Below are positions 4,416-14,238 of a DNA stretch of 64,000 nucleotides, piece after piece. Numbering within the stretch: position 1 is the stretch's first letter; each line of letters starts with the position of its first letter. The translations under genes and the position numbers were made by a program. The notes under the pieces are model-generated. The model was not told the origin of the DNA. It ran no database searches and saw only the letters and a list, made by a program, of their open reading frames with translations. This stretch comes from Candidatus Hermodarchaeota archaeon (lineage in GTDB: Archaea; Asgardarchaeota; Hermodarchaeia; Hermodarchaeales; Hermodarchaeaceae), in NCBI GenBank assembly GCA_016839365.1, contig JAEOUH010000069.1, positions 33,698-97,697 of the forward strand. Reading direction: 5' to 3'.

Positions 4416-5039
4416 ATGACCACCCACAATCAGCATTCCAAAGAAGAATCAACAGCTCCTACGGTCTTTCCTGTCTACGTCTTTGAGAGAACTAGCAAAT
4501 CAATCTTCAACTATTGTCTCAACAAAGCCACAGGGTCATCTCCGCGTGAAGCCCTGGGCGTCGTTCTGGGCTTTCGTCGACAATGGCAGGGAGAGAAGTA
4601 TATCCGTATCACCGATTGGGCCACCGGACACGTAGAAGCCAGTATTGCCCATGCCCGGTTCACTCCAGAAGGTATCCTCGAATATCGGCTTACCCTGCAC
4701 GATCGGTATGGCAATAATCCCCATTCTCCTCGCGTCGTCGGCCTCTGGCACTCCCATCCCTTTGGTGGCGATCCGCAGTTCTCCTCAACGGATTTACGTA
4801 CATTCTTCAACACGCCTTTCTGTGCTGAGGGCAACGTCTTCTTTTTGATTGATCCCCTCAGCCGGATCTTCAAAGTGTATATGCTTCGACCACGGCCCGA
4901 ACAGCCCGGCTTACAGCTAGAAAGGGTAGAATGGTGTACCTATCGTCCATCAGTCCCCGCTGGGGAACCAATGCTTCAGGATAACTCGCTAATCCATGAG
5001 GAGGAAATGCGTGATGACGAAGAAGCCCACACCGATTGA
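4416..5039 (+). CDS. JAB/MPN+ (JAMM) metalloprotease, putative Ubl-processing/deconjugating enzyme
   Basis: N-terminal catalytic Glu (PREALG) and a complete JAMM motif VGLWHSHP-x7-S-x2-D (HSHPFGGDPQFSSTD). Confidence 0.9.
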   Translation: MTTHNQHSKEESTAPTVFPVYVFERTSKSIFNYCLNKATGSSPREALGVVLGFRRQWQGEKYIRITDWATGHVEASIAHARFTPEGILEYRLTLHDRYGNNPHSPRVVGLWHSHPFGGDPQFSSTDLRTFFNTPFCAEGNVFFLIDPLSRIFKVYMLRPRPEQPGLQLERVEWCTYRPSVPAGEPMLQDNSLIHEEEMRDDEEAHTD

Positions 5040-5877
5040 TTTAGAGTATTTTGAGAAGGATCAGCATGATCGAACACGACGCTGGTTGGGGGCTACCAAT
5101 CTTGAGGCCGTTCGTCAGTCAACGGTACTGATGGTGGGCGCAGGGGCAGTCGGGAATGAGGTCTGTAAGAATCTCGGCTTGTTAGGGGTTGGGAAAATCG
5201 TTTTGGTGGATCCCGATAAAGTGGCCGCCTCCAATTTGAACCGCTGTGTTTTCTTTCGTCCAGGAGACCACGATATTAAGTTCAAAGTCGATGCAGTGGC
5301 TGAGCGGCTCCCTGAACTCGCAACCGATACAGTGGTTGAACCACATGCCATACCGATACAGGTTGCACCGGACGAAGTGTGGGATGTTGACTTAGTGTTG
5401 GTCGGTGTTGACAACCATTATGCCCGCTACCTGCTGAATGCTAAAAATCTCAGCATCGAGCCACCCTTGCCAGTGATAAATGGGGCTATGGGAAAGGACT
5501 TCGTGTCAGTTGAAGTCCTCGCGCCACCAAAGACAGCGTGCTTGGTGTGTTCGTGGAGTAAAGACTTCGTCGATCATGTCATCACCAACGAAGTACGCAC
5601 ACGATGTGATCCTTTCTTTGTTGACACTATGCCCCGATTTCCCATGATTAGTTTTGTTACCTCCGTTGTGGGCGCAGTGATGGCGTGGGAAGCCACAAAG
5701 ATGCTTGCTGGATTACAGCAGTGGCGTCTAACGGGGCAATGGCAGGAGGGGCTCAAACCAGCACTTGGCCGGTTCATCCAATACGACTTACACAAGCATA
5801 AATCCATGACAGGACCAATTATGGCAAATCCACGGTGTACAGAAATTTTCTGTCGCGATAAGCGGAAACATCTCTAA
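5014..5877 (+). CDS. ThiF/UBA-family E1-like Ubl-activating enzyme
   Basis: GAGAVGNE nucleotide loop, DPDKVAASNLNR, VDN, Zn ligands CLVC and C-x4-C, candidate catalytic Cys in RTRC. SD GAGGAGG precedes ATG 5014; overlaps the JAB gene. Confidence 0.9.
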   Translation: MTKKPTPIDLEYFEKDQHDRTRRWLGATNLEAVRQSTVLMVGAGAVGNEVCKNLGLLGVGKIVLVDPDKVAASNLNRCVFFRPGDHDIKFKVDAVAERLPELATDTVVEPHAIPIQVAPDEVWDVDLVLVGVDNHYARYLLNAKNLSIEPPLPVINGAMGKDFVSVEVLAPPKTACLVCSWSKDFVDHVITNEVRTRCDPFFVDTMPRFPMISFVTSVVGAVMAWEATKMLAGLQQWRLTGQWQEGLKPALGRFIQYDLHKHKSMTGPIMANPRCTEIFCRDKRKHL

Positions 5878-5881
5878 CCCG

Positions 5882-7483
5882 TTAGATTAAACCAATGGTC
5901 TTCTGCCAGACCGTTGAAGTCGGTTTCTGATCAGCCCACAAGCGTAGGTTCAGAGTTACTTTGGGGGCTCCATTTGGCATAGGGAGGTTCATCCAAATAT
6001 TCACAGGGGAATCTAATCGAGGTGCGAAGGGTTCAATAGCCACTACCTGGTCCATAAGGCCGTCTGAAACGGTTGCTGTCATCACCATTTGGTCTAACGG
6101 ATGGGCACTGCTTGGTTTTGGAATCAATGAGACCTTCAAGGGCAACGTACTCCCACGTGGGACAGCATCAGGGGCGTTAACCTCTAATTCTGCGGGGGCT
6201 TCTCTCAACCGGGCGGGAACCGATTCGGGGACACCCACCACTCGTTTTACTTTCCACCCGGTCTCAATCTTGGGCTCAGAACGCTCTCCCTTTTTTCCAT
6301 CAATGGCAACAGTATCAGAGTACCAACTGACTTTGAATTCTTGGCGGACGCGAGTATCCATCCAGTTTCCGATGATAAGGGGAATATGACGGTTTGTCAC
6401 TCCTAACAATCCCATGGCCCCATGCCAGGTCGGATCAACAGGGATCCATTGACCCCGAATCCAAATTTCACTCCAAGCATGACGCTCCCAGGACTGCCCA
6501 TTATAAGCATAACCCGCTTCCAATCGGGCTGGTATTTTGTTCGCGCGACACAACGCCGCAAATAAAGCGGCATATTCAGTGCAATCACCAACCTGCTTTT
6601 CGATAGCATAAGCTGCTCCTCTTTCATACTCTTGACGAACATACCGCATCTTCTTTGTAACTGCCCTCATCGCTGCTTGTGCAAATTGTATCGGTGTTGA
6701 ATGATCTTTAGCAATATCTCGGGCAAGATCTTTGATGAGGTGGTGGTGTGATTCTATGAAATTTTCTGGTTGGGTGAACTTAACGATATTGGATGGAAAG
6801 GCTGAGTTGCGAGTTTCTGGCGGAATATTATACCGTAGTGCGCGATTCCGAATGAGAGCTGTGTACCCACAGGTAAAGGCTTCTCCAACAGCAAGACTAG
6901 CTTGATGAAATCGTATCCATTGATTTCCGATTGTATCATTCTGTTGTTGTCCATCCTTCGGAGAGAACTGGATATCAAGTACCGTTTGCCGAGGAGGCAG
7001 CGAAGGCGGAGCAGCTATTATAACTCGAACATTGCTGATTCGAGCACGTGTAATGTTCTTCACAGTCGCTGAATAATTGACCCTGTGCACTACAATTGGT
7101 GGATGTCCTCCTTCAAAGCGAAAGCATCCCATGACATAATGATCGTCGGGAGGTCCTCGATAGGGATACTTATCGATTGCGGCTTTGATGCGGGTTTCCT
7201 GCAATGCAACAACGATTGTATAGAATCCAGACAGCAGATTTGCCGTCAGTGGCACACTAAATTCACCTGTATTAGTCTTACCAAAATGAAACGGGACCTT
7301 ACTCACCATTCGCCCGAAGGGATCAATGATGTAGACGATCCCATTGTCAACCTTTACATTCGATTTTGCTTGACCCTTTCGTTTCAACTGAATAGAAATC
7401 CGTTGACCGGCTTTAACACTCGGAACACCATCTTGCCTCGTAGGGGCGATAATTTTCAAAGACACGGGAAGATTACTCGTCAT
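5882..7483 (-). CDS. Transglutaminase-like (Cys-His-Asp) domain protein with flanking beta-rich domains
   Basis: GDCTEYAALFAALCRANKIPAR...HAWSEIW...W.PVDPTW gives an intact triad; no obvious signal peptide; overlaps the upstream Zn-finger gene. Confidence 0.85.
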   Translation of the reverse strand: MTSNLPVSLKIIAPTRQDGVPSVKAGQRISIQLKRKGQAKSNVKVDNGIVYIIDPFGRMVSKVPFHFGKTNTGEFSVPLTANLLSGFYTIVVALQETRIKAAIDKYPYRGPPDDHYVMGCFRFEGGHPPIVVHRVNYSATVKNITRARISNVRVIIAAPPSLPPRQTVLDIQFSPKDGQQQNDTIGNQWIRFHQASLAVGEAFTCGYTALIRNRALRYNIPPETRNSAFPSNIVKFTQPENFIESHHHLIKDLARDIAKDHSTPIQFAQAAMRAVTKKMRYVRQEYERGAAYAIEKQVGDCTEYAALFAALCRANKIPARLEAGYAYNGQSWERHAWSEIWIRGQWIPVDPTWHGAMGLLGVTNRHIPLIIGNWMDTRVRQEFKVSWYSDTVAIDGKKGERSEPKIETGWKVKRVVGVPESVPARLREAPAELEVNAPDAVPRGSTLPLKVSLIPKPSSAHPLDQMVMTATVSDGLMDQVVAIEPFAPRLDSPVNIWMNLPMPNGAPKVTLNLRLWADQKPTSTVWQKTIGLI

Positions 7484-7868
7484 TATCTCGACCTACTTGG
7501 TCGGCTTCAGAGCGGGATTCGATTCCTTCTTCTTCTGGAAGAATAACTACTTTTCCACCCAGTGGTTGAGGTGAGCGTCGGGGGACATCGCCCAATATTC
7601 TCACAGATGTTCGTATCTCCGTAGGTTGGCTTCCTAAATCCAATCGGGGACCCAAAAACCGAGTAAAGTGTGGAGAGTGGGCTTCACCGCCACGAACGAT
7701 TGCTCCGGGACAGGTGCCTTGCCCTGATTCTAAGAAGAGGGCACGACACGAAGGACAAATATAGCTACCACAGACTGTACAAATCCACCATTGGCTCCGT
7801 GCATTTTCAAGTGAAACTTGAGTGGCACAAGCCGCACACCGCATTTGGGATGCACCATGTATACTCAT
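7473..7868 (-). CDS. RING/PHD-like Zn-finger protein (candidate E3) with disordered acidic tail
   Basis: C-x2-C-x15-C-x2-C-x4-C-x2-C-x11-CP-x9-H; ATGA overlap with the upstream gene. Confidence 0.7.
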   Translation of the reverse strand: MSIHGASQMRCAACATQVSLENARSQWWICTVCGSYICPSCRALFLESGQGTCPGAIVRGGEAHSPHFTRFLGPRLDLGSQPTEIRTSVRILGDVPRRSPQPLGGKVVILPEEEGIESRSEADQVGRDNDE

Positions 7869-8083
7869 GATGGTCTCTCCTTAAGCTCACGTCGTTTCTT
7901 TTTACCATGAATTCTAATGGAATAATAAGGCGAAAAGTTGGGAGGTCGTTCTTCTTCAAAAGGGATGTCTCTCTCTCGGAGAATCTGAATCCGGGTTTCC
8001 CTCTCAGATTCATTCGTTGATTTTTCAGGTTCTTCCTCATACTCGTCGGGGCTTTCTTTCTCCTCTGAAGGTGGATCCGACAT
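7865..8083 (-). CDS. Small disordered protein (acidic N-terminus, basic C-terminus) in the Ubl operon
   Basis: SD GAGGTG upstream of ATG 8083; fills the gap between the E2 and Zn-finger genes with translational coupling. Confidence 0.65.
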   Translation of the reverse strand: MSDPPSEEKESPDEYEEEPEKSTNESERETRIQILRERDIPFEEERPPNFSPYYSIRIHGKKKRRELKERPS

Positions 8084-8097
8084 AATTGACACCTCGT

Positions 8098-8850
8098 TTA
8101 TCTCTCATCATCAAGAATCCGAACCGATGTACGTCTACTTGGTTTATCCAAAACGCGGGGCGCCCTTCGAACAGATTCCGCGCTTGATGATGAGGACTCA
8201 AGTATGCGTACACGTCCCTGCCGTGAAGCCGCAGCTGGCCCATCCTTGTGCTGGGCTTCCCAGAGCTGATCAAGGGTTTCAACGATTCTGTCTGCATCTT
8301 GCTCATACCATGCCATAGCCGCCATATTTAGACCATGATCGGATTGAAACTGAGATGGTGGTTCTACTCGGTCTGGTTTTAACAATACAAAAAAGGGGAG
8401 ATCTTCAAGGATACGATCTAATTCTCCACGAACCGAGTAGCAGGCATGTCCAGTCCCGCTCGCCGCCAGTCTGGGGTGATACAGGGGCGTTTCTGCTACA
8501 GGTCGAATGGCGCCTATGTTCTGAGGGTACTCTCGGGGCAAATCAAAGATGAATCGATGCTCATAACGTATGGCGCTTGTATCCTCAAGGTTTCTGGGTT
8601 TACGAACGAAGCCGGGGAGATTACGCATAGTAAAGCGAATCCGTTTAAAAGCTCCATCGCGATATCGGGCGATGGTGGAAACGGTGAAATCGCGATTGCT
8701 CCAAGCTGTGTCTTCGCGGTGCGGAGGATCTGGATCCCACCCTCGTCGTCCAAAGAGATTGTTCATAGTGTCAAAAAATGTCTGAATCTGGGTTTCCACT
8801 CTGGCGTTAAACAGCTCAGTAGAGAATACTGGTCGGGTCACGATTATCAC
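8098..8850 (-). CDS. UBC-fold E2-like Ubl-conjugating enzyme
   Basis: FIFDLPREYP...TPLYHPRL-x5-GHAC matches the E2 pattern FPxxYP...TxIxHPN-x-GxIC, with the Cys conserved; LNMAAMAWYEQD matches the E2 LNxxAAxxY helix. Confidence 0.8.
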   Translation of the reverse strand: MIIVTRPVFSTELFNARVETQIQTFFDTMNNLFGRRGWDPDPPHREDTAWSNRDFTVSTIARYRDGAFKRIRFTMRNLPGFVRKPRNLEDTSAIRYEHRFIFDLPREYPQNIGAIRPVAETPLYHPRLAASGTGHACYSVRGELDRILEDLPFFVLLKPDRVEPPSQFQSDHGLNMAAMAWYEQDADRIVETLDQLWEAQHKDGPAAASRQGRVRILESSSSSAESVRRAPRVLDKPSRRTSVRILDDER

Positions 8851-8894
8851 CCTCAGTTCCTGTATTCGTCTCGGGTGTGTGAAGATTTTTTTTG

Positions 8895-9215
8895 TTATTG
8901 TCCGACTTCAGGGACTACATCGAGGAGGAAGAATTCATCATCGGTGATTTTTGGTTCTAGCTCCCCGAAGGTTATACCTGGACTTAGCCGGGTGGGTTCA
9001 GGGGCTTTACGGATGAGCACAAATTCTGCACGCTGGTCCCCGATTTTCGCTTTAGCCCAATCGTCAATACTGACGCCCTCATCACGGGCCTGGGTGACAA
9101 GAGTGCGGATGACTTCATCGACACGGGTATCTTCATCAATGCCGATTCGGAATTCCTTTTGACGGGGCTCAACATCGACGATGATTGAGCGCCAAAATCC
9201 TTCATCTTTACTCAA
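8895..9215 (-). CDS. Ubiquitin-like (beta-grasp) protein ending ...VPEVG-Q
   Basis: 106 aa; strand-strand-helix (DTRVDEVIRTLV), then strands, TFGEL (like the Ub TLxD motif), a final strand FLLDV and a near-terminal Gly. SD AGGTGA before TTG; first gene of the E2 operon. Confidence 0.75.
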   Translation of the reverse strand: MSKDEGFWRSIIVDVEPRQKEFRIGIDEDTRVDEVIRTLVTQARDEGVSIDDWAKAKIGDQRAEFVLIRKAPEPTRLSPGITFGELEPKITDDEFFLLDVVPEVGQ

Positions 9216-9457: not shown

Positions 9458-12352
9458 ATGACCACTAGGCACAAGCCATCCTTATCAACTTCACCAATCG
9501 TGTTTCGTAGTATCCGTCTAGTGAACTTTGTCATTCACCGTGATACCACAATCCAACTCGATCAATCCCCTGTCATTCTTATTACAGGCTCCAATGGAAG
9601 CGGAAAAACCTTGATTCTCGACGCCCTGTTGCTCGCAATTGGCGTTGAATCTCGAAGAGCCCAACGTCAACGCAATTCGGCTTTCATCGGTCGATTCGAG
9701 AAATATGCTGAAGTCATTCTAGAACTTAACAACTACCAACTCAATGGGCGACGAGTCTTAAGAAGCCCCGATCCTACCATGTCTGCGCTTCTTGATAAGG
9801 ACGTTGTGTCGATCCGGCTACGAGTCGATGAAACAAACCGAATATCCTATTGGTTGAATGAAAAACGATCAGTGAATGGCCATCAGATTGCTCGTAAAGA
9901 TATTCGGAAACTCTTCCAAGCTGCTGGACTCTTTGGAGATTCTCCCTTAGCTGTTACTGAGGCTGAGACTTTAGACCACTTTGCCTCCCAATCTCCACGA
10001 CGAAAGTTCGAGACTCTCCTGAACGAAACTGGGCTCCGTAATTGGATGGAAAAACTCGAGGAAGCCCGTCTCCTCGTATTACAGGCAAGAGCCAATGTCA
10101 AGCCCCTCGAATACCGGATCCGCCATGAAGAACAGCGCCTCCAGGTTCTGAAGGCAGCCTATGAAGCTTTTCAACAAAAACAGCAGCTCCAACAGAGACA
10201 GAAGGATCTCGACGTTGAAGCGGCCTGGGCTGAAGTGGCTTATCGTGAGGAGCTTGCTAGCCAACTCCAATCACAAGTTACCAGTCTGGAAACCCAACTC
10301 TCCGACCAAAATGAGAAATTGGACAAGTTAGACCAAAGGAAAACCAGCTTGAAAGAGAAGTGCGAAGCGATTGAAGCAAAACGGGAAAAGCTCCTAACAA
10401 CCATGGACTCGCTACACGATGAGCGGTTGCAAGCACAAGGCCATCGGCGAGGGCTAGAGAATGAACTCAAAGGCATGCTAAATCGAACAGAACGATATAC
10501 CAAGCGTCGGAAGCCCGCAACAGGCAAAATTGACGCCATTCAGAAGGAGTTAGCAACGATTATCCAGGATCGAGATGGCATCGATGATCAACTCGCTCAG
10601 GTCCGACAAGATATTGCCTCAACGGAAGAGTACCTCTTTACCAAACCCCAACGGTATCCACATTTTGAAGAGACAATACTTCGGGGCTGCCTCCGATACC
10701 GGTCTGAACTTGATAAACTCGCACTCTCTGATGCAGTGATTGGGCCCCTTTTTGCGCTCATTCGTATGAAACCGGAGTATGCACAGTACGAAACCGCGGT
10801 CAAACTGGCCTTGGGACGCTACTCCTATGCATTCATTGCTCTGAATCGAGAGGTCTTCGTTGAGGCTAAAAACTTGTATGATCATCTCTGGCCACATGAA
10901 AAGCCAGATCTGGTGGTCGCCCGGACAAATCCCACGACCGCGATAACGCGAGATCGCCCAACGGTTTCTTTACCCGTGATTGGTTGGGCAGCTGATCTCA
11001 TTGAAGGGGATATATATGCCATTAGTTTCCTAAGCCGTGTCATAAACACAGCTATCGCGGAGGAAGGAGCCGATCCCAACACGCTAGTCGATGCCTCTCA
11101 ACAACTCAATTGCAACATCATTACTAGTGAAGGAACAAGTCATTATCTCCGAATCGGCGCCTTTGCCCGACCACCCCGACCCGTTACGGTAAGTTTGGAT
11201 GTCTCTCTCAACGATTTGGGACTAGCCCAGGATGGCGCTGATACACGCATTCAACTCCGTGAACTTCGTGAACAAGAAGCTAAACTGATGCGAGACCGAA
11301 TGCGCATCAATTCTGAAATAAGTCAACTTCGGGCAACCCTCCAAGACCTTCAGCAAGTGCACATATCTCATCTTTCTGATGGGGAAAGAACAGCCCTGGT
11401 CACTAGTTCTGAACATCGAGTCGCTGAATTACAACAACTGATTCTTGAACTGGAAACTGAATGCGACAGGCTTAGCCAAGATTATCAGGAATATAACTTA
11501 GAATTATCACCGATCCATTCCCGACAGCAAAAACTATCCGAACAACTCCAAAACCTTGACCTTCGACGATCACGCCGTCAGGTTGAAATCAACCACCTCG
11601 TTGCAGAGCTCAAGCAACGCGAAGATGAATATGAGCATCTCATTAAACAAACCAAACATTTCCGTAAGGCTGCCACAGCACTGGGAGAACGCCCTCAGGC
11701 TGTTCGAAACCCTACTGCGATTCGTGATGAACAAATCCAAATCCAGGCGATGATTGATACTATCACCGCCACAGCAGACGATCGGCAAGCCTTTGAAGAC
11801 CAGGAACAAGTCGTCTCCCAACTCCAAGACTACCTCAAACAACGTCAGCTCCACTTAGAAAATCTGATGACGGACGTTGATCGAAGACTTCTCGAGTGGA
11901 GACGGCAACTCCAAGAGACGGTTGAAATCCTCAACCACCGTATGAACCAATTACTCAGCCACTTCCTCAAGCAAGTCAAACTGCTTATTCGATTCCCCGA
12001 TGAACCCAGTCGTGCGGAGCTCCACCTTCAACTTGCCATTAACCGCAAAGGCGACTGGCGGACCTATCAAGAAATGTCTGGGGGCGAACGGGTCCTAGCC
12101 ACCCAGACTTTCATTTTAGCCCTACACACTCTCGCCAAGAGTCCCCTCCATGTGATTGATGAATTTACCCAACGCCTCGATGAAGCAAGCCGTGCAGCTA
12201 TTCTCAGTGTTGTTCAACGCGCCCTCGATTTAACCCAAAAAGACTCACTAATTCATCCACAGTTTCTTCTAATGGCTCCCTCCACGGTCGGACTCGAGAT
12301 CCCAGAGACTATGCACCACGTCGTGCTGATCAAAGGACAGGTGAAAGTCTAA
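9458..12352 (+). CDS. SMC-family ATPase of the SMC5/6-related type
   Basis: IRLVNF..H, Walker A GSNGSGKT, two long coiled coils around a hinge (VIGPL...AVKLALG..AFI), signature MSGGER, Walker B/D-loop VIDEFTQRLD, and His-less switch QFLLMAP as in SMC5/6 QF/YxxxTP. Confidence 0.9.
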   Translation: MTTRHKPSLSTSPIVFRSIRLVNFVIHRDTTIQLDQSPVILITGSNGSGKTLILDALLLAIGVESRRAQRQRNSAFIGRFEKYAEVILELNNYQLNGRRVLRSPDPTMSALLDKDVVSIRLRVDETNRISYWLNEKRSVNGHQIARKDIRKLFQAAGLFGDSPLAVTEAETLDHFASQSPRRKFETLLNETGLRNWMEKLEEARLLVLQARANVKPLEYRIRHEEQRLQVLKAAYEAFQQKQQLQQRQKDLDVEAAWAEVAYREELASQLQSQVTSLETQLSDQNEKLDKLDQRKTSLKEKCEAIEAKREKLLTTMDSLHDERLQAQGHRRGLENELKGMLNRTERYTKRRKPATGKIDAIQKELATIIQDRDGIDDQLAQVRQDIASTEEYLFTKPQRYPHFEETILRGCLRYRSELDKLALSDAVIGPLFALIRMKPEYAQYETAVKLALGRYSYAFIALNREVFVEAKNLYDHLWPHEKPDLVVARTNPTTAITRDRPTVSLPVIGWAADLIEGDIYAISFLSRVINTAIAEEGADPNTLVDASQQLNCNIITSEGTSHYLRIGAFARPPRPVTVSLDVSLNDLGLAQDGADTRIQLRELREQEAKLMRDRMRINSEISQLRATLQDLQQVHISHLSDGERTALVTSSEHRVAELQQLILELETECDRLSQDYQEYNLELSPIHSRQQKLSEQLQNLDLRRSRRQVEINHLVAELKQREDEYEHLIKQTKHFRKAATALGERPQAVRNPTAIRDEQIQIQAMIDTITATADDRQAFEDQEQVVSQLQDYLKQRQLHLENLMTDVDRRLLEWRRQLQETVEILNHRMNQLLSHFLKQVKLLIRFPDEPSRAELHLQLAINRKGDWRTYQEMSGGERVLATQTFILALHTLAKSPLHVIDEFTQRLDEASRAAILSVVQRALDLTQKDSLIHPQFLLMAPSTVGLEIPETMHHVVLIKGQVKV

Positions 12353-13143
12353 TGATAACTAATGATACTTCTACATTTCTCCGTGCCTTTCCGCGCCGCA
12401 AGGCCTGGTATGACACTTTCCAATACAACTACAAGCGAACACGACTATCATCTTTTGGAACCAAAGGGATAGTAATTACGCTATGGAATCTGACCAAAAA
12501 GTATGAGGTTGCCCTAAAACAGCACGATACGTTCCCGATTAAGGAAGCGGAGATTGACCGTGAAGAAGTTGCCGATGCATACCGCGTCCTTGATACCCCC
12601 TGGGAACGAACTCTCGATGGGCGTTTCTACTATAATCTCGCTTCAATGCAACATCACCGGGATTCTCAATTGGCTGCTCCTGAAATCGCTCCCGAGGAAT
12701 GGATTTCCCAATTTGCCAATGAGGTCAAACGACGCGCGACTCCGGTACTCTTTTTAATTAATCAAGAGCGGACCATCCCACCTTTCCAATTGCCTCCTGC
12801 TGATTCGCCGGTCGCAATGGACGATGCCCCTACCCAAGATGATAAACAGGCTATGCGCAAACACCGTATCTCTTATGAAGAGATCTCCATAGACGCTCTC
12901 GGCGCTAGAAGGGCGGATATCCTGAAACGGCTACAAGGCAAACGATACAACTATGCAGCCCTATCCGAAATCCTAACCAACTGGGAACTCGATTTACTCA
13001 GCCAGATGATTCGGGATAACATCTGTCCTGCAACGTTCGAAAAAACGGCTATCATTTTTCGACACCCTCCACCTAAAACAAATCCTGCTTTCACTGCTGT
13101 TGCCATTACCGCACAAAACCATGAGGAGGTTCCTCGAAAGTGA
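12352..13143 (+). CDS. Hypothetical protein coupled to SMC; candidate kleisin (Nse4/ScpA-like)
   Basis: TAATG overlap with the SMC gene; helical N-part, Pro/acidic linker and C-terminal helical domain. The kleisin call is mainly positional. Confidence 0.45.
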   Translation: MITNDTSTFLRAFPRRKAWYDTFQYNYKRTRLSSFGTKGIVITLWNLTKKYEVALKQHDTFPIKEAEIDREEVADAYRVLDTPWERTLDGRFYYNLASMQHHRDSQLAAPEIAPEEWISQFANEVKRRATPVLFLINQERTIPPFQLPPADSPVAMDDAPTQDDKQAMRKHRISYEEISIDALGARRADILKRLQGKRYNYAALSEILTNWELDLLSQMIRDNICPATFEKTAIIFRHPPPKTNPAFTAVAITAQNHEEVPRK

Positions 13144-13787
13144 CCTCAGATCCAATACCTACTGACACCATCTCTTCCACAAGCGAGGATTCAGAAGAAG
13201 AGGTGTTAGAGCAACGTCATCTCATTGGTCAGCTCTTTGCCGCCCTCACAGCAAGGTTTCGGAATGAGGAAGGCCAACTCAGCATCGGGGTCAAACGGCA
13301 AGATCTTTTAGAAGCCCTTCATATCAATAAGACTGGCTTAGTCCGCCTCCTCGATTTACTCCGCCAGCAAATATCTCCCCTGGGGCTAGAATTGGTTGAA
13401 TATCGAATGGGACGGGACACGCTCTATTGTGTTCGAACCATTTACGGAGTTCCTGGCGAGCTCACTGATCCTGAATACGCCGTATTAGGAGTCATCATTT
13501 CCACTGTAGAACAGGTGAGTAAACTCCATCGTCCACGCCGGGTGGCCACAAAAGACATCGAAACAATCCTTGTAGCCCGTGGGCGCCTCTCCCGCTACCA
13601 ACTCGATCGTATTTTACGACGACTAACCGAGCTAGGCTATATTACGCGAACCGCACGACGAATTACTTACGGTCCACGACTCGAATTGGAATTTGATGCT
13701 GAACGCCGTGAAGCCATCGCCAGCGCAGCAACCCTGTATCTCGCAGGGGCTACAGCTGATTCGGAGGAAGACCTGAATGAAACTTGA
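13140..13787 (+). CDS. Tandem winged-helix KITE protein (Nse1/Nse3-MAGE/ScpB-like)
   Basis: LRQQISPLGLELVEY...LY, LTDPEYAVLGVII and LDRILRRLTELGYI...ITYGPRLELEF resemble Nse1/Nse3 WH-A and WH-B, including the terminal GPRxxxE; GTGA overlap with the upstream gene. Confidence 0.75.
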   Translation: MTSDPIPTDTISSTSEDSEEEVLEQRHLIGQLFAALTARFRNEEGQLSIGVKRQDLLEALHINKTGLVRLLDLLRQQISPLGLELVEYRMGRDTLYCVRTIYGVPGELTDPEYAVLGVIISTVEQVSKLHRPRRVATKDIETILVARGRLSRYQLDRILRRLTELGYITRTARRITYGPRLELEFDAERREAIASAATLYLAGATADSEEDLNET

Positions 13788-14238
13788 TCTCTCCACCGTT
13801 GGCATCAGTTGTGTAGCCTGTGGAACCCGAATCACACTTGAGGAGGCAATCCAGAAGGAATGGCACCAATGTTTACGGTGTCAGTTCTTCATTGATCCCC
13901 ATTGTCTTGGAATTGTCCAAAACACCATGGGTGGGGTCTGCCCCTCATTTAGCCAAGGAGTGACCCGTCATTCCTTGCAAGCTGCTGATATTCCTACAGA
14001 ACAGATCCTCATATTCGTCAAAGATCAATATCAGAAAGGTCACGGAGGTGCTCTCATCGACTCCTTATTTTATACCAGACCTTCAGCTTTAAAGAAACCA
14101 CAACACCCAAGTCAAATGGAATCGAACTCTGAAGAACCTCTCACCCGAGAAGAAATCTGGCAACGCTTTGGACTCGTTTTAGTGCAGCGGTCCCAAGGTA
14201 AATGGAAAACTTGGGAAAAAGTTGGCAGTACTAGCTGA
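13777..14238 (+). CDS. Nse1-RING-like Zn-finger protein, paralog of 7473-7868
   Basis: C-x2-C-x16-C-x2-C-x4-D-x2-C-x11-CP-x8-H; overlaps the end of the KITE gene by 11 nt. Confidence 0.7.
   Translation: MKLDLSTVGISCVACGTRITLEEAIQKEWHQCLRCQFFIDPHCLGIVQNTMGGVCPSFSQGVTRHSLQAADIPTEQILIFVKDQYQKGHGGALIDSLFYTRPSALKKPQHPSQMESNSEEPLTREEIWQRFGLVLVQRSQGKWKTWEKVGSTS

What the first reader, a model, noticed from the sequence alone, without database searches (positions are those of the whole stretch)
5882..9215. Ubl ends in Gly-Gln and is co-transcribed with an intact transglutaminase: possible second, ATP-independent ligation route
Seen: the Ubl terminus is GAA GTC GGA CAA TAA = E-V-G-Q-stop, a single Gly capped by Gln. 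The operon ends with a Cys-His-Asp transglutaminase-like gene with no evident signal peptide. Established: single-Gly Ubls with a removable cap exist (UFM1 matures to VG; Atg8). Transglutaminases act on Gln side chains, Pup ends in Gln/Glu, and Legionella MavC cross-links ubiquitin via a Gln. Inference: JAMM may remove Gln to open the E1/E2 route, while the transglutaminase cross-links or deamidates the Gln-capped form. Alternatively it acts as a maturase or deconjugase.
Basis: partly seen in the sequence, partly recalled or inferred. Interest (0 to 1): 0.75.

Follow-up and report, generated by a model that had tools for sequence, protein, structure and literature searches.

The report
Variable Ubl tail; conserved transglutaminase-like partner
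An Asgard archaeon's second ubiquitin-like tagging operon does end its tag in Gly-Gln and does carry an intact transglutaminase-fold enzyme, but the Gln is just one version of a throw-away tail, so the enzyme, although a conserved and unexplained part of the system, is very unlikely to work through that Gln.

Summary
The 106-aa ORF (8895-9215, minus strand) ends E-V-G-Q-stop and folds as a ubiquitin-like beta-grasp. It heads a tightly packed operon: Ubl, divergent UBC-type E2, small charged protein, RING-like zinc protein, 533-aa cytosolic transglutaminase-like enzyme with a conserved Cys301-His335-Asp350 triad. This operon converges on JAMM and ThiF-E1 genes.

In 30 species genomes from four Asgard families, Val-Gly is invariant but the next residue is not. 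It is Gln in 5 (one genus, the window's nearest kin) and absent in 13. In the other 12 it is F, FSS, D, K, I, IK, L or VLP. The transglutaminase-like gene lay beside or near the Ubl operon in every locus where the contig allowed a check, whatever the tail.

My reading is that Gln is a disposable precursor cap, probably clipped by the JAMM peptidase. The transglutaminase-fold enzyme is most likely a papain-like thiol (iso)peptidase acting on Ubl linkages. An E3-like acyl-transfer role with its zinc-finger partner is not excluded.

The genome also has the canonical Asgard Ub/ESCRT cluster, so this is a second system. It is linked to an Smc5/6-like operon. The scan has already described the same system in other Hermodarchaeota genomes.

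The parts
8895..9215 (-). Ubl, 106 aa, beta-grasp. The functional end is the invariant Val104-Gly105. Gln106 (codon 8898-8900) is a non-conserved cap.
8098..8850 (-). Divergent UBC-fold E2-like protein, 250 aa. It has HPR in place of HPN, a putative catalytic Cys137, and a disordered tail with three [RK]-[IV]-x-[IV]-[LI] motifs.
   Evidence: hhalign against 31 canonical Asgard E2s gives probability 91%, E 1e-6, with Cys137 aligned to the catalytic Cys. Two distant orthologs give weak UQ_con hits. The ESM Atlas search gives a lead to bacterial E2 clusters. Alignment.
7865..8092 (-). Small charged protein (S75, 75 aa) with a conserved RIVIL...ERDIPFEEERPPNF core. It is kept between the E2 and the TGase in all four families.
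7473..7868 (-). RING-like binuclear zinc-finger protein (131 aa; CxxC-x15-CxxC-x4-CxxC...C...HxxH) with two tail motifs. It overlaps the TGase start by 11 nt.
   Evidence: Alignment. In Pfam, zf-UDP (RING-type) hits 10 of 14 members, best E 4.3e-6, below the cut-off. The Atlas search gives a B-box/RING lead. The ZN-TGase pair recurs in family f21 and in GCA_048886025.1.
5882..7483 (-). Transglutaminase-like (papain-fold) enzyme, 533 aa, cytosolic. Domains: MG/Ig-like 4-124, beta-sandwich plus catalytic core 128-417, Ig-like 423-533. Triad codons: Cys301 at 6581-6583, His335 at 6479-6481, Asp350 at 6434-6436.
4996..5877 (+). ThiF-type E1, 293 aa, with a GxGxxG motif, CxxC zinc motifs and a basic C-terminal tail. 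It converges on the TGase gene.
   Evidence: Pfam ThiF at 119.6 bits. Sequence. Synteny.
4416..5039 (+). JAMM/JAB metallopeptidase, 207 aa, with an intact Glu...HSH...SSTD motif. It is the default candidate for removing the cap.
   Evidence: Pfam Prok-JAB at 35.1 bits against a cut-off of 25. Sequence.

Best explanation
The 106-aa protein is the modifier of a second, lineage-restricted Asgard ubiquitin-like conjugation system. Its working C-terminus is the invariant Val-Gly. Whatever follows is a short, unconstrained precursor tail, which is Gln in this genome. The tail is clipped, most likely by the convergently encoded JAMM peptidase (inferred). Gly105 is then adenylated by the ThiF-type E1 and passed to Cys137 of the divergent UBC-fold E2 (inferred from homology). 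RING-like zinc proteins serve as E3-type adaptors (inferred). The transglutaminase-like protein is a real, cytosolic, catalytically intact Cys-His-Asp enzyme that several Asgard families keep with the Ubl, E2 and small-protein genes. Its retention does not depend on a terminal Gln. The mechanism I commit to is a papain-like thiol (iso)peptidase or amidase working on the Ubl C-terminal linkage, that is, deconjugation or a second processing activity. It would be recruited through its zinc-finger or small-protein neighbours, in the way the Bub systems pair a JAB maturase with a second, unrelated deconjugating peptidase. What is shown: gene content, folds, catalytic residues, tail variability and synteny. 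What is inferred: every enzymatic step. The confidence of 0.45 is for the whole statement. I put the part 'the Gln is a non-essential, variable cap' at about 0.9, and the part 'the enzyme is a Ubl-directed (iso)peptidase' at about 0.4.
For: (1) Tail variability. Val-Gly is invariant in 30 species genomes. The next residue is Q in 5, absent in 13, and F/FSS/D/K/I/IK/L/VLP in 12 (alignments). Three further Heimdall-labelled assemblies end in QVG-stop. (2) A Ubl fold, an E2 fold with a Cys aligned to the catalytic Cys, ThiF and JAMM domains with intact motifs. (3) The TGase triad is conserved in 58 aligned homologs. The core matches the 'putative cysteine protease' 3ISR at Z 23.8 (rmsd 3.4 A, 255 residues aligned) and matches TglA, TgpA, FXIII and TG2/3 at Z 9-11. 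At sequence level 3ISR scores E 2.7e-20. (4) Synteny. Ubl-E2-S75-(ZN)-TGase are contiguous in 14 loci of families f1 and f5 and in family f20. In f21 a ZN-TGase pair lies about 7-40 kb from the Ubl cluster. In G022 the TGase stays with Ubl-E2 while JAB-E1 stay with the SMC operon on another contig. (5) Precedent for two peptidases in one Ubl operon: in Bub systems JAB matures the Ubl and BubE is proposed to deconjugate it (PMC11601596). (6) Complex prediction of the Ubl with the TGase core gave weak support only. The score was 0.46 (runs 0.46, 0.59, 0.12) and the best of 3 controls was 0.00. That mark was reached by 58 of 80 solved complexes and 2 of 110 mismatched pairs. At 0.60 or under it was reached by only 7 of those 80 and by both mismatches that passed. 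The runs agree in at least 0% of their contacts, and the partner's pLDDT is at least 77. This adds little.
Against: No biochemical data exist for any member. The Transglut_core superfamily contains true transglutaminases, proteases, amidases and inactive scaffolds, so fold and triad do not tell peptidase from transferase. JAMM is retained even where the Ubl has no cap, so a deconjugase already exists and a second one needs a reason. Related TGase clades occur in Asgard genomes that lack this Ubl/E2 (P0043 in a closed Loki-like genome). A ZN-TGase pair also stands alone in another assembly. The enzyme family is therefore not strictly Ubl-dependent. In f21-type loci the TGase is not in the operon proper. 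The three complex-prediction runs did not agree on an interface.
Confidence: 0.45

Rival explanations
1. E3-like acyl relay. The RING-like zinc protein recruits E2~Ubl. The Ubl is passed as a thioester to Cys301 of the transglutaminase-fold enzyme and then aminolysed onto a target Lys. This is the second half-reaction of a transglutaminase, but fed by the ATP-dependent E1/E2 route rather than by a Gln.
For: ZN and TGase form a translationally coupled pair with an 11-nt overlap. The pair persists when separated from the Ubl operon. The triad is intact. The Ubl-TGase complex prediction gave weak support: score 0.46 against a best control of 0.00, with the same caveats and counts as given under the best explanation. 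From general knowledge, transglutaminases work through a thioester acyl-enzyme, and Legionella SidC is a Cys-His-Asp E3.
Against: Families f5 and f20 have the TGase next to Ubl-E2-S75 without the ZN gene. No papain- or TGase-fold enzyme is known to accept a Ubl from an E2. There is no direct evidence.
Confidence: 0.18
2. The enzyme acts on something other than the Ubl linkage. It could be a Ubl-targeted protease or amidase that processes tagged substrates, for example proteins on the neighbouring Smc5/6-like complex or chromatin. It could also be a merely syntenic neighbour with an unrelated role.
For: Related TGases occur without the Ubl system. In f21 the gene lies 7-40 kb away. Ig/MG-like flanking domains, lost in some species of the same genus, suggest substrate-binding accessories. 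The whole cluster is tied to an Smc5/6-like operon.
Against: The TGase is immediately adjacent to Ubl-E2-S75, often overlapping, in three families. In G022 it travels with Ubl-E2 rather than with E1/JAB. One f20 TGase carries the same tail motif as E2, S75 and ZN.
Confidence: 0.2
3. Division of labour reversed. The transglutaminase-like enzyme is the C-terminal maturase that removes the cap, and JAMM is the deconjugase.
For: Papain-like Ubl maturases are the rule in eukaryotes (UCH, Ulp/SENP, UfSP, Atg4; general knowledge). The TGase sits in the Ubl's own operon.
Against: Thirteen of 30 species, including all ten f21 genomes with the Ubl, encode a Ubl ending in a naked Gly yet keep the enzyme. 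Maturation therefore cannot be its only job. In characterised prokaryotic systems JAB does the maturation (PMC11601596).
Confidence: 0.1
4. The terminal Gln is the acyl donor or deamidation site for the transglutaminase, giving an ATP-independent ligation route parallel to E1/E2.
For: Gly-Gln is present here and in four close relatives. The enzyme has an intact triad.
Against: Gln follows the Gly in only 5 of 30 species, all in one genus, and is absent or different elsewhere, while the enzyme is retained. No Pup-ligase/Dop family gene was found in this 84%-complete genome. A C-terminal residue with a free carboxylate next to its side chain is not a typical transglutaminase substrate (general knowledge).
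Confidence: 0.03

Closest known systems
Archaeal and Asgard E1/E2/RING/Rpn11-like ubiquitin cascades (Caldiarchaeum subterraneum system, PMC5654768; canonical Asgard Ub-ESCRT cluster)
   Same: A beta-grasp modifier with a C-terminal Gly, a ThiF-type E1, a UBC-fold E2 with a catalytic Cys, a zinc-finger E3 candidate and a JAMM peptidase, all clustered.
   Different: This genome already has the canonical cluster on another contig: Ub 78 aa, E2 153 aa, E1 361 aa and a RING next to Vps23/Vps28. The system here is a second one. Its Ubl and E2 escape the Pfam models. The Ubl ends in a single Val-Gly rather than Gly-Gly. It has an extra small protein and a transglutaminase-fold enzyme, and it is linked to an Smc5/6-like operon.
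Bacterial Bub (6E/DUF6527) and Bil operons
   Same: Prokaryotic Ubl operons in which a JAB peptidase exposes the C-terminal Gly. Bub operons also carry a second, unrelated peptidase (BubE) proposed to deconjugate (PMC11601596).
   Different: The second enzyme here is a Cys-His-Asp transglutaminase/papain fold, not the Ser-His BubE. The E2 keeps its cysteine. The host is an Asgard archaeon and the context is an SMC operon, not phage defence.
COG1305-type 'transglutaminase-like putative cysteine protease' (PDB 3ISR, Cytophaga hutchinsonii); also TgpA and TglA
   Same: The same beta-sandwich plus catalytic core: Z 23.8 (rmsd 3.4 A, 255 residues aligned), sequence E 2.7e-20, and aligned G-x-C / H-A-W / D motifs.
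   Different: None of these is known to work with a Ubl. 3ISR is uncharacterised. The Asgard protein adds MG/Ig-like domains at both ends and sits in a Ubl operon.
UFM1 pathway (UFM1 precursor ...VG-SC, UBA5, UFC1, UfSP cysteine proteases)
   Same: A single Val-Gly terminus with a short removable cap, a small ThiF-like E1, and a papain-superfamily cysteine enzyme in the pathway (general knowledge).
   Different: The E2 aligns with canonical HPN-type E2s through an HPR motif, which UFC1 lacks. The cysteine enzyme is transglutaminase-fold, not C78 UfSP. No homology to UFM1 was tested or claimed.
Gln-based Ubl chemistry: Pup/Dop/PafA and Legionella MavC
   Same: Only the presence of a Gln near the reactive end and, for MavC, a papain-like transglutaminase acting on ubiquitin.
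   Different: The Pup terminal Gln/Glu is conserved and ligated by glutamine-synthetase-like enzymes, which were not found here. MavC uses the internal Gln40 of ubiquitin. Here the Gln is not conserved.

Membership tests
Transglutaminase-like superfamily (Pfam PF01841 Transglut_core; papain-like fold) | Profile match above the curated cut-off | tested here: met
   85.4 bits against a cut-off of 23, residues 252-351. PDB sequence matches: 3ISR at E 2.7e-20 and TgpA at E 1.3e-11.
Transglutaminase-like superfamily (Pfam PF01841 Transglut_core; papain-like fold) | Cys-His-Asp catalytic triad in the conserved motifs | tested here: met
   Cys301 and His335 are invariant and Asp350 is at least 90% conserved among 58 homologs, with one Glu. 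They align to the motifs of 3ISR and TgpA.
Transglutaminase-like superfamily (Pfam PF01841 Transglut_core; papain-like fold) | Core fold | tested here: met
   AF2 model with pLDDT 90.6. 3ISR matches at Z 23.8 (rmsd 3.4 A, 255 residues aligned). TglA, TgpA, FXIII and TG2/3 match at Z 9-11. Foldseek gives E 5.7e-17.
Transglutaminase-like superfamily (Pfam PF01841 Transglut_core; papain-like fold) | Protein-Gln transamidation (true transglutaminase activity) | not testable with these tools
   An amine-incorporation or cross-linking assay is needed. The comparative data argue only against Gln106 as the substrate.
Conjugatable ubiquitin-like modifiers | Beta-grasp fold | tested here: met
   AF2 pLDDT 86.7. 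Foldseek matches ubiquitin, SUMO1, NEDD8 and ISG15 at E 1e-4 to 1e-3, probability 1.00.
Conjugatable ubiquitin-like modifiers | Conserved C-terminal Gly, exposed or followed by a short removable tail | tested here: met
   Val104-Gly105 are invariant. The tail is 0-3 residues in the 30 species genomes and up to 13 in one metagenomic protein.
Conjugatable ubiquitin-like modifiers | Dedicated E1 and E2 encoded alongside | tested here: met
   ThiF at 119.6 bits. The E2-like protein gives hhalign probability 91%, E 1e-6, with the catalytic Cys aligned. Synteny holds across four families.
Conjugatable ubiquitin-like modifiers | Covalent attachment to targets | not testable with these tools
   No proteomic or biochemical data are available.
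UBC-fold E2 (Pfam PF00179) | Profile match and an HPN...Cys active-site region | tested here: inconclusive
   The window protein has no Pfam hit. Two distant orthologs hit UQ_con below the cut-off, at E 0.003-0.004. Profile-profile comparison with 31 canonical Asgard E2s gives probability 91%, E 1e-6, aligning HPR to HPN and Cys137 to the catalytic Cys. No structure was predicted for it.
JAMM/JAB metallopeptidases | Glu ... H-x-H ... S-x-x-D zinc site | tested here: met
   Prok-JAB at 35.1 bits against a cut-off of 25. The sequence shows REALG and WHSHPFGGDPQFSSTD.
Pup-type Gln/Glu-terminal modifiers | Conserved C-terminal Gln or Glu | tested here: not met
   Gln in 5 of 30 species genomes and Glu in none. 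One metagenomic ortholog has an E cap.
Pup-type Gln/Glu-terminal modifiers | Dop/PafA ligase family in the genome | tested here: not met
   PF03136 gave no match in the own genome, which is 84% complete. The positive control matched Corynebacterium.
RING/B-box-type binuclear zinc fingers (for the 131-aa ZN protein) | Eight Cys/His ligands in cross-brace spacing and a profile match | tested here: inconclusive
   Conserved ligands are C11, C14, C30, C33, C38, C41, C53 and H64/H67. zf-UDP (RING-type) hits 10 of 14 members, best E 4.3e-6, with the window's own copy below the cut-off. The Atlas search gives a B-box lead. hhalign found no match to the genome's canonical RING. The domain was not folded.

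The most novel reading that the evidence does not exclude
The zinc-finger protein and the transglutaminase-fold enzyme together form a new class of Ubl ligase in the closest archaeal relatives of eukaryotes. The RING-like finger docks E2~Ubl. The Ubl is relayed as a thioester to the transglutaminase Cys301 and then aminolysed onto lysines, possibly of the neighbouring Smc5/6-like complex or its clients. That would be a HECT/RBR-like mechanism built on a papain/transglutaminase fold.
Probability: 0.13. Interest if true: 0.85.

Novelty: new variant of a known kind. Interest (0 to 1): 0.5.

Why it matters
Asgard archaea are the closest known relatives of eukaryotes. Their ubiquitin machinery is used to reconstruct how eukaryotic protein tagging arose. 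This cluster is a second Ubl system, not described in the literature I could search. It has a Val-Gly terminus, docking motifs in its enzymes' tails, and a physical link to an Smc5/6-like operon. It also has an enzyme type, the transglutaminase/papain fold, that no characterised Ubl pathway contains.

Settling that the Gln is irrelevant removes an attractive but wrong mechanism. It also focuses the open question: is the enzyme a deconjugase, a processing protease or a ligase? That can be tested directly with four or five recombinant proteins.

Tried and rejected
- **E2, single-sequence comparison:** Comparing the E2-like alignment with one canonical E2 by hhalign gave nothing. Homology appeared only with more diverse alignments on both sides.
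- **E2, PDB sequence search:** The E2-like profile gave only spurious acyl-carrier-protein hits at E above 0.1.
- **ZN against the canonical RING:** hhalign found no match.
- **The search for related loci in genome contigs:** With the E2 alignment it re-found only Hermodarchaeota-type loci, because the chosen peptide patterns were too specific.
- **Profile search of 5.8 billion proteins:** It returned only Asgard-labelled proteins plus one labelled Zixibacteria.
- **PNGase/Rad4 idea:** This came from PMC6222260. No PNGase or Rad4 chain appeared among the 50 rows shown by Foldseek or by VIA-align. That does not exclude a distant relationship.
- **Informative domain fusions:** Pfam on ten related transglutaminase-like proteins showed no Ubl-related fusions.
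- **TGase tree:** Only the quick search finished, and deep branches are weak, with 68% support for the group holding all Ubl-linked rows. I draw no conclusion on monophyly.
- **Cap type against TGase form:** I looked for a link between cap type and the long or short TGase form and found none. Short forms go with QKQ, L, I, FSS and no cap. Long forms go with Q, K, F, D and IK.

Full report
**What is there**

The region 4416-9215 holds seven genes. Five lie on the minus strand, packed with a 44-nt gap, a 5-nt gap, a 4-nt overlap and an 11-nt overlap:
- a 106-aa protein (8895-9215)
- a 250-aa protein (8098-8850)
- a 75-aa highly charged protein (7865-8092)
- a 131-aa Cys-rich protein (7473-7868)
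- a 533-aa Transglut_core protein (5882-7483)

Two lie on the plus strand and converge on these with 4 nt between the stop codons: a Prok-JAB peptidase (4416-5039) and a ThiF-family E1 (4996-5877).

The minus-strand sequence reads GAA GTC GGA CAA TAA at the end of the first gene.

**Identity of the parts**

- **Ubl.** The 106-aa protein has no Pfam hit. Its AF2 model (pLDDT 86.7) matches ubiquitin, SUMO1, NEDD8, ISG15 and the EccD Ubl domain.
- **E2.** The 250-aa protein also escapes Pfam. A 22-sequence alignment of it against 31 canonical Asgard E2s gives hhalign probability 91% and E 1e-6. PREYP, HPR (for HPN), Cys137 (for the catalytic Cys) and the LN..AM helix all align. Two distant orthologs give weak UQ_con hits in the same region, and the ESM Atlas search points to bacterial E2 clusters.
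- **Zinc protein.** The 131-aa protein has eight conserved Cys/His ligands in cross-brace spacing. It hits RING-type models weakly in 10 of 14 orthologs.
- **JAB and E1.** Both show intact motifs.
- **Transglutaminase-like protein.** It scores 85.4 bits against a cut-off of 23. Cys301 and His335 are invariant and Asp350 nearly so among 58 homologs. It has no N-terminal hydrophobic segment. The confident model (pLDDT 90.6) has three parts: an MG/Ig-like domain (4-124), a beta-sandwich plus catalytic core (128-417), and an Ig-like domain (423-533). The core matches 3ISR at Z 23.8 and TglA, TgpA, FXIII and TG2/3 at Z 9-11.

**Host and context**

Homologs are labelled Hermodarchaeota, Promethearchaeota and other Asgard names.

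The same genome carries the canonical Asgard ubiquitin cluster elsewhere. That cluster has Ub, E2, an E1 with a Ub-fold domain, and a RING, next to Vps23 and Vps28. The window's cluster is therefore a second Ubl system.

Its E2 family was found in 32 of 400 Asgard genomes, confined to four families: f1 18/18, f5 1/1, f20 2/2 and f21 10/12.

The cluster sits head-to-head with an SMC-kleisin-kite-zinc-finger operon. In f21 the two are fused into one co-directional array: SMC-kleisin-kite-ZN-JAB-E1-Ubl-E2-S75. A 2025 preprint describes archaeal SMC5/6-related operons. In the passages I searched it treats the Nse1 RING and the SUMO ligase Nse2 as eukaryotic additions and does not mention a Ubl linkage (10.1101/2024.01.07.573240). 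That linkage is the subject of other findings of this scan.

I collected the Ubl C-termini from 30 species-level genomes, from metagenomic proteins and from three further assemblies. Val-Gly is invariant. The residue after it is not:

| Residue(s) after Val-Gly | Species genomes (of 30) |
|---|---|
| None | 13 (all ten f21 genomes with the Ubl, f5, one f20, one f1) |
| Q or QKQ | 5 (four Q, one QKQ; all one genus, the window's closest kin at 93-99% identity) |
| F | 3 |
| FSS | 2 |
| D | 2 |
| K, I, IK, L, VLP | 1 each |

Metagenomic variants add E, R, G, RK, KVEA, SNP and one 13-residue tail.

In every locus where the contig allowed a check, a transglutaminase-like gene of this family was present. 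No Pup-ligase/Dop gene was found in this 84%-complete genome.

**How firmly is the transglutaminase-like gene tied to the Ubl?**

The tie is firm but not absolute.
- In f1 (13 loci), f5 and f20 the gene directly follows Ubl-E2-S75, with the zinc protein in between only in f1.
- In G022 the system is split. SMC-kleisin-kite-ZN-JAB-E1 lie on one contig and Ubl-E2-S75-TGase on another. The enzyme therefore travels with the modifier and the E2, not with E1/JAB.
- In f21 a paralogous ZN gene is always immediately followed by the TGase (ten loci). This pair lies about 7-40 kb from the Ubl cluster, separated by unrelated genes. In three other f21-type assemblies it is not within 7 kb.
- A ZN-TGase pair also stands alone in GCA_048886025.1.
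- A related TGase clade occurs in a closed Loki-like genome that lacks this E2.

**Mechanism**

The tail behaves like the unconstrained precursor extensions of many Ubls. JAB peptidases expose the Gly in the Bub system (PMC11601596), and the Caldiarchaeum cascade is the archaeal precedent for such clusters (PMC5654768). I therefore assign cap removal to the JAMM enzyme by inference.

The enzyme is kept where there is no cap, so it cannot be only a maturase. I favour a papain-like (iso)peptidase role on Ubl linkages. Three considerations support this. Its closest structural relative is annotated, though not shown, as a cysteine protease. Papain-superfamily enzymes are the usual Ubl proteases. 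Bub operons pair a JAB maturase with a second deconjugating peptidase.

A co-fold of the Ubl with the enzyme core gave weak support only. The score was 0.46 (runs 0.46, 0.59, 0.12) and the best of 3 controls was 0.00. That mark was reached by 58 of 80 solved complexes and 2 of 110 mismatched pairs. At 0.60 or under it was reached by only 7 of those 80 and by both mismatches that passed. The runs agree in at least 0% of their contacts, and the partner's pLDDT is at least 77. I give it little weight.

The main rivals are an E3-like thioester relay with the zinc-finger partner, and action on tagged substrates rather than on the Ubl bond. Neither is excluded.

**Comparison with what is known, and novelty**

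None of the prokaryotic Ub-system papers returned by my search (including Iyer 2006, the Caldiarchaeum reconstitution and the Bil/Bub papers) contains the term 'transglutaminase-like'. A search for Asgard, ubiquitin and transglutaminase returned only unrelated contexts.

The arrangement is a new variant of a known kind: a prokaryotic E1/E2/JAB Ubl operon with an added transglutaminase-fold enzyme.

The scan has already found and followed up the same system in other Hermodarchaeota genomes. Those conclusions agree with mine: the enzyme is real, conserved, closest to 3ISR, and adds to E1/JAB rather than replacing them. The new result here is the census of the C-terminal tail, which disposes of the Gln hypothesis.

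Noticed in passing
window 7473-8230 (tails of E2-like, S75, ZN); also L065:2438-3745 C-terminus and the E2 C-termini in L057-L063: A short strand-like motif, [RK]-[IV]-x-[IV]-[LI], often followed by acidic or Ser residues, recurs in disordered tails. It occurs three times in the E2-like protein, once in S75 and twice in ZN. It ends the E2 in f21 (GGVRII-stop) and one f20 TGase (SSIVFLEE-stop). It is conserved across four families and looks like a SIM/LIR-type docking motif. The partner is untested.
   Followed up: partly
window 9458-14238 (SMC-like 9458-12352, kleisin-like 12352-13143, kite-like 13140-13787, zinc finger 13777-14238): An Smc5/6-like operon lies head-to-head with the Ubl operon. 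Its last gene is a paralog of the Ubl-operon zinc protein. The SMC-kleisin-kite-ZN array also occurs in Loki-like genomes that lack the Ubl system, and in f21/f5 it is fused to JAB-E1.
   Followed up: partly
own genome contig C71, about 37.5-42 kb (loci L070, L071): This is the canonical Asgard ubiquitin cluster: E1 with a C-terminal Ub-fold, a 153-aa E2, a 78-aa ubiquitin and a RING protein, next to UEV-Vps23 and Vps28. The genome therefore runs two separate Ubl systems.
   Followed up: yes
orthologous loci L014, L017, L019, L021, L023 compared with window 5882-7483: Within one genus the transglutaminase-like protein exists in a long form (about 533 aa) and a short form (about 290 aa). The short form lacks both the N-terminal MG/Ig-like domain and the C-terminal Ig-like domain. 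In the tree the short forms group together.
   Followed up: partly
L067:1942-3660, L176:8094-9848, L177:8216-9940, L178:7536-9254: In f21-type genomes the gene directly after S75 is an aromatic amino-acid lyase with a rubredoxin domain inserted in its middle. Four assemblies conserve it at this position. I did not look up whether this fusion is known, and its relation to the Ubl cluster is unknown.
   Followed up: no
window 4996-5877 and orthologs: The E1 ends in a conserved Cys-x-E-x-F-C-R-x-K-R-K basic tail in all families. It is possibly a zinc or nucleic-acid contact. I did not examine it.
   Followed up: no
G022 (family f5), whole genome: This 93%-complete genome has the divergent E2-like gene but gave no canonical UQ_con match at E 1e-10 or better. 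The second system may be the only E2-based one there. I did not check this further.
   Followed up: no
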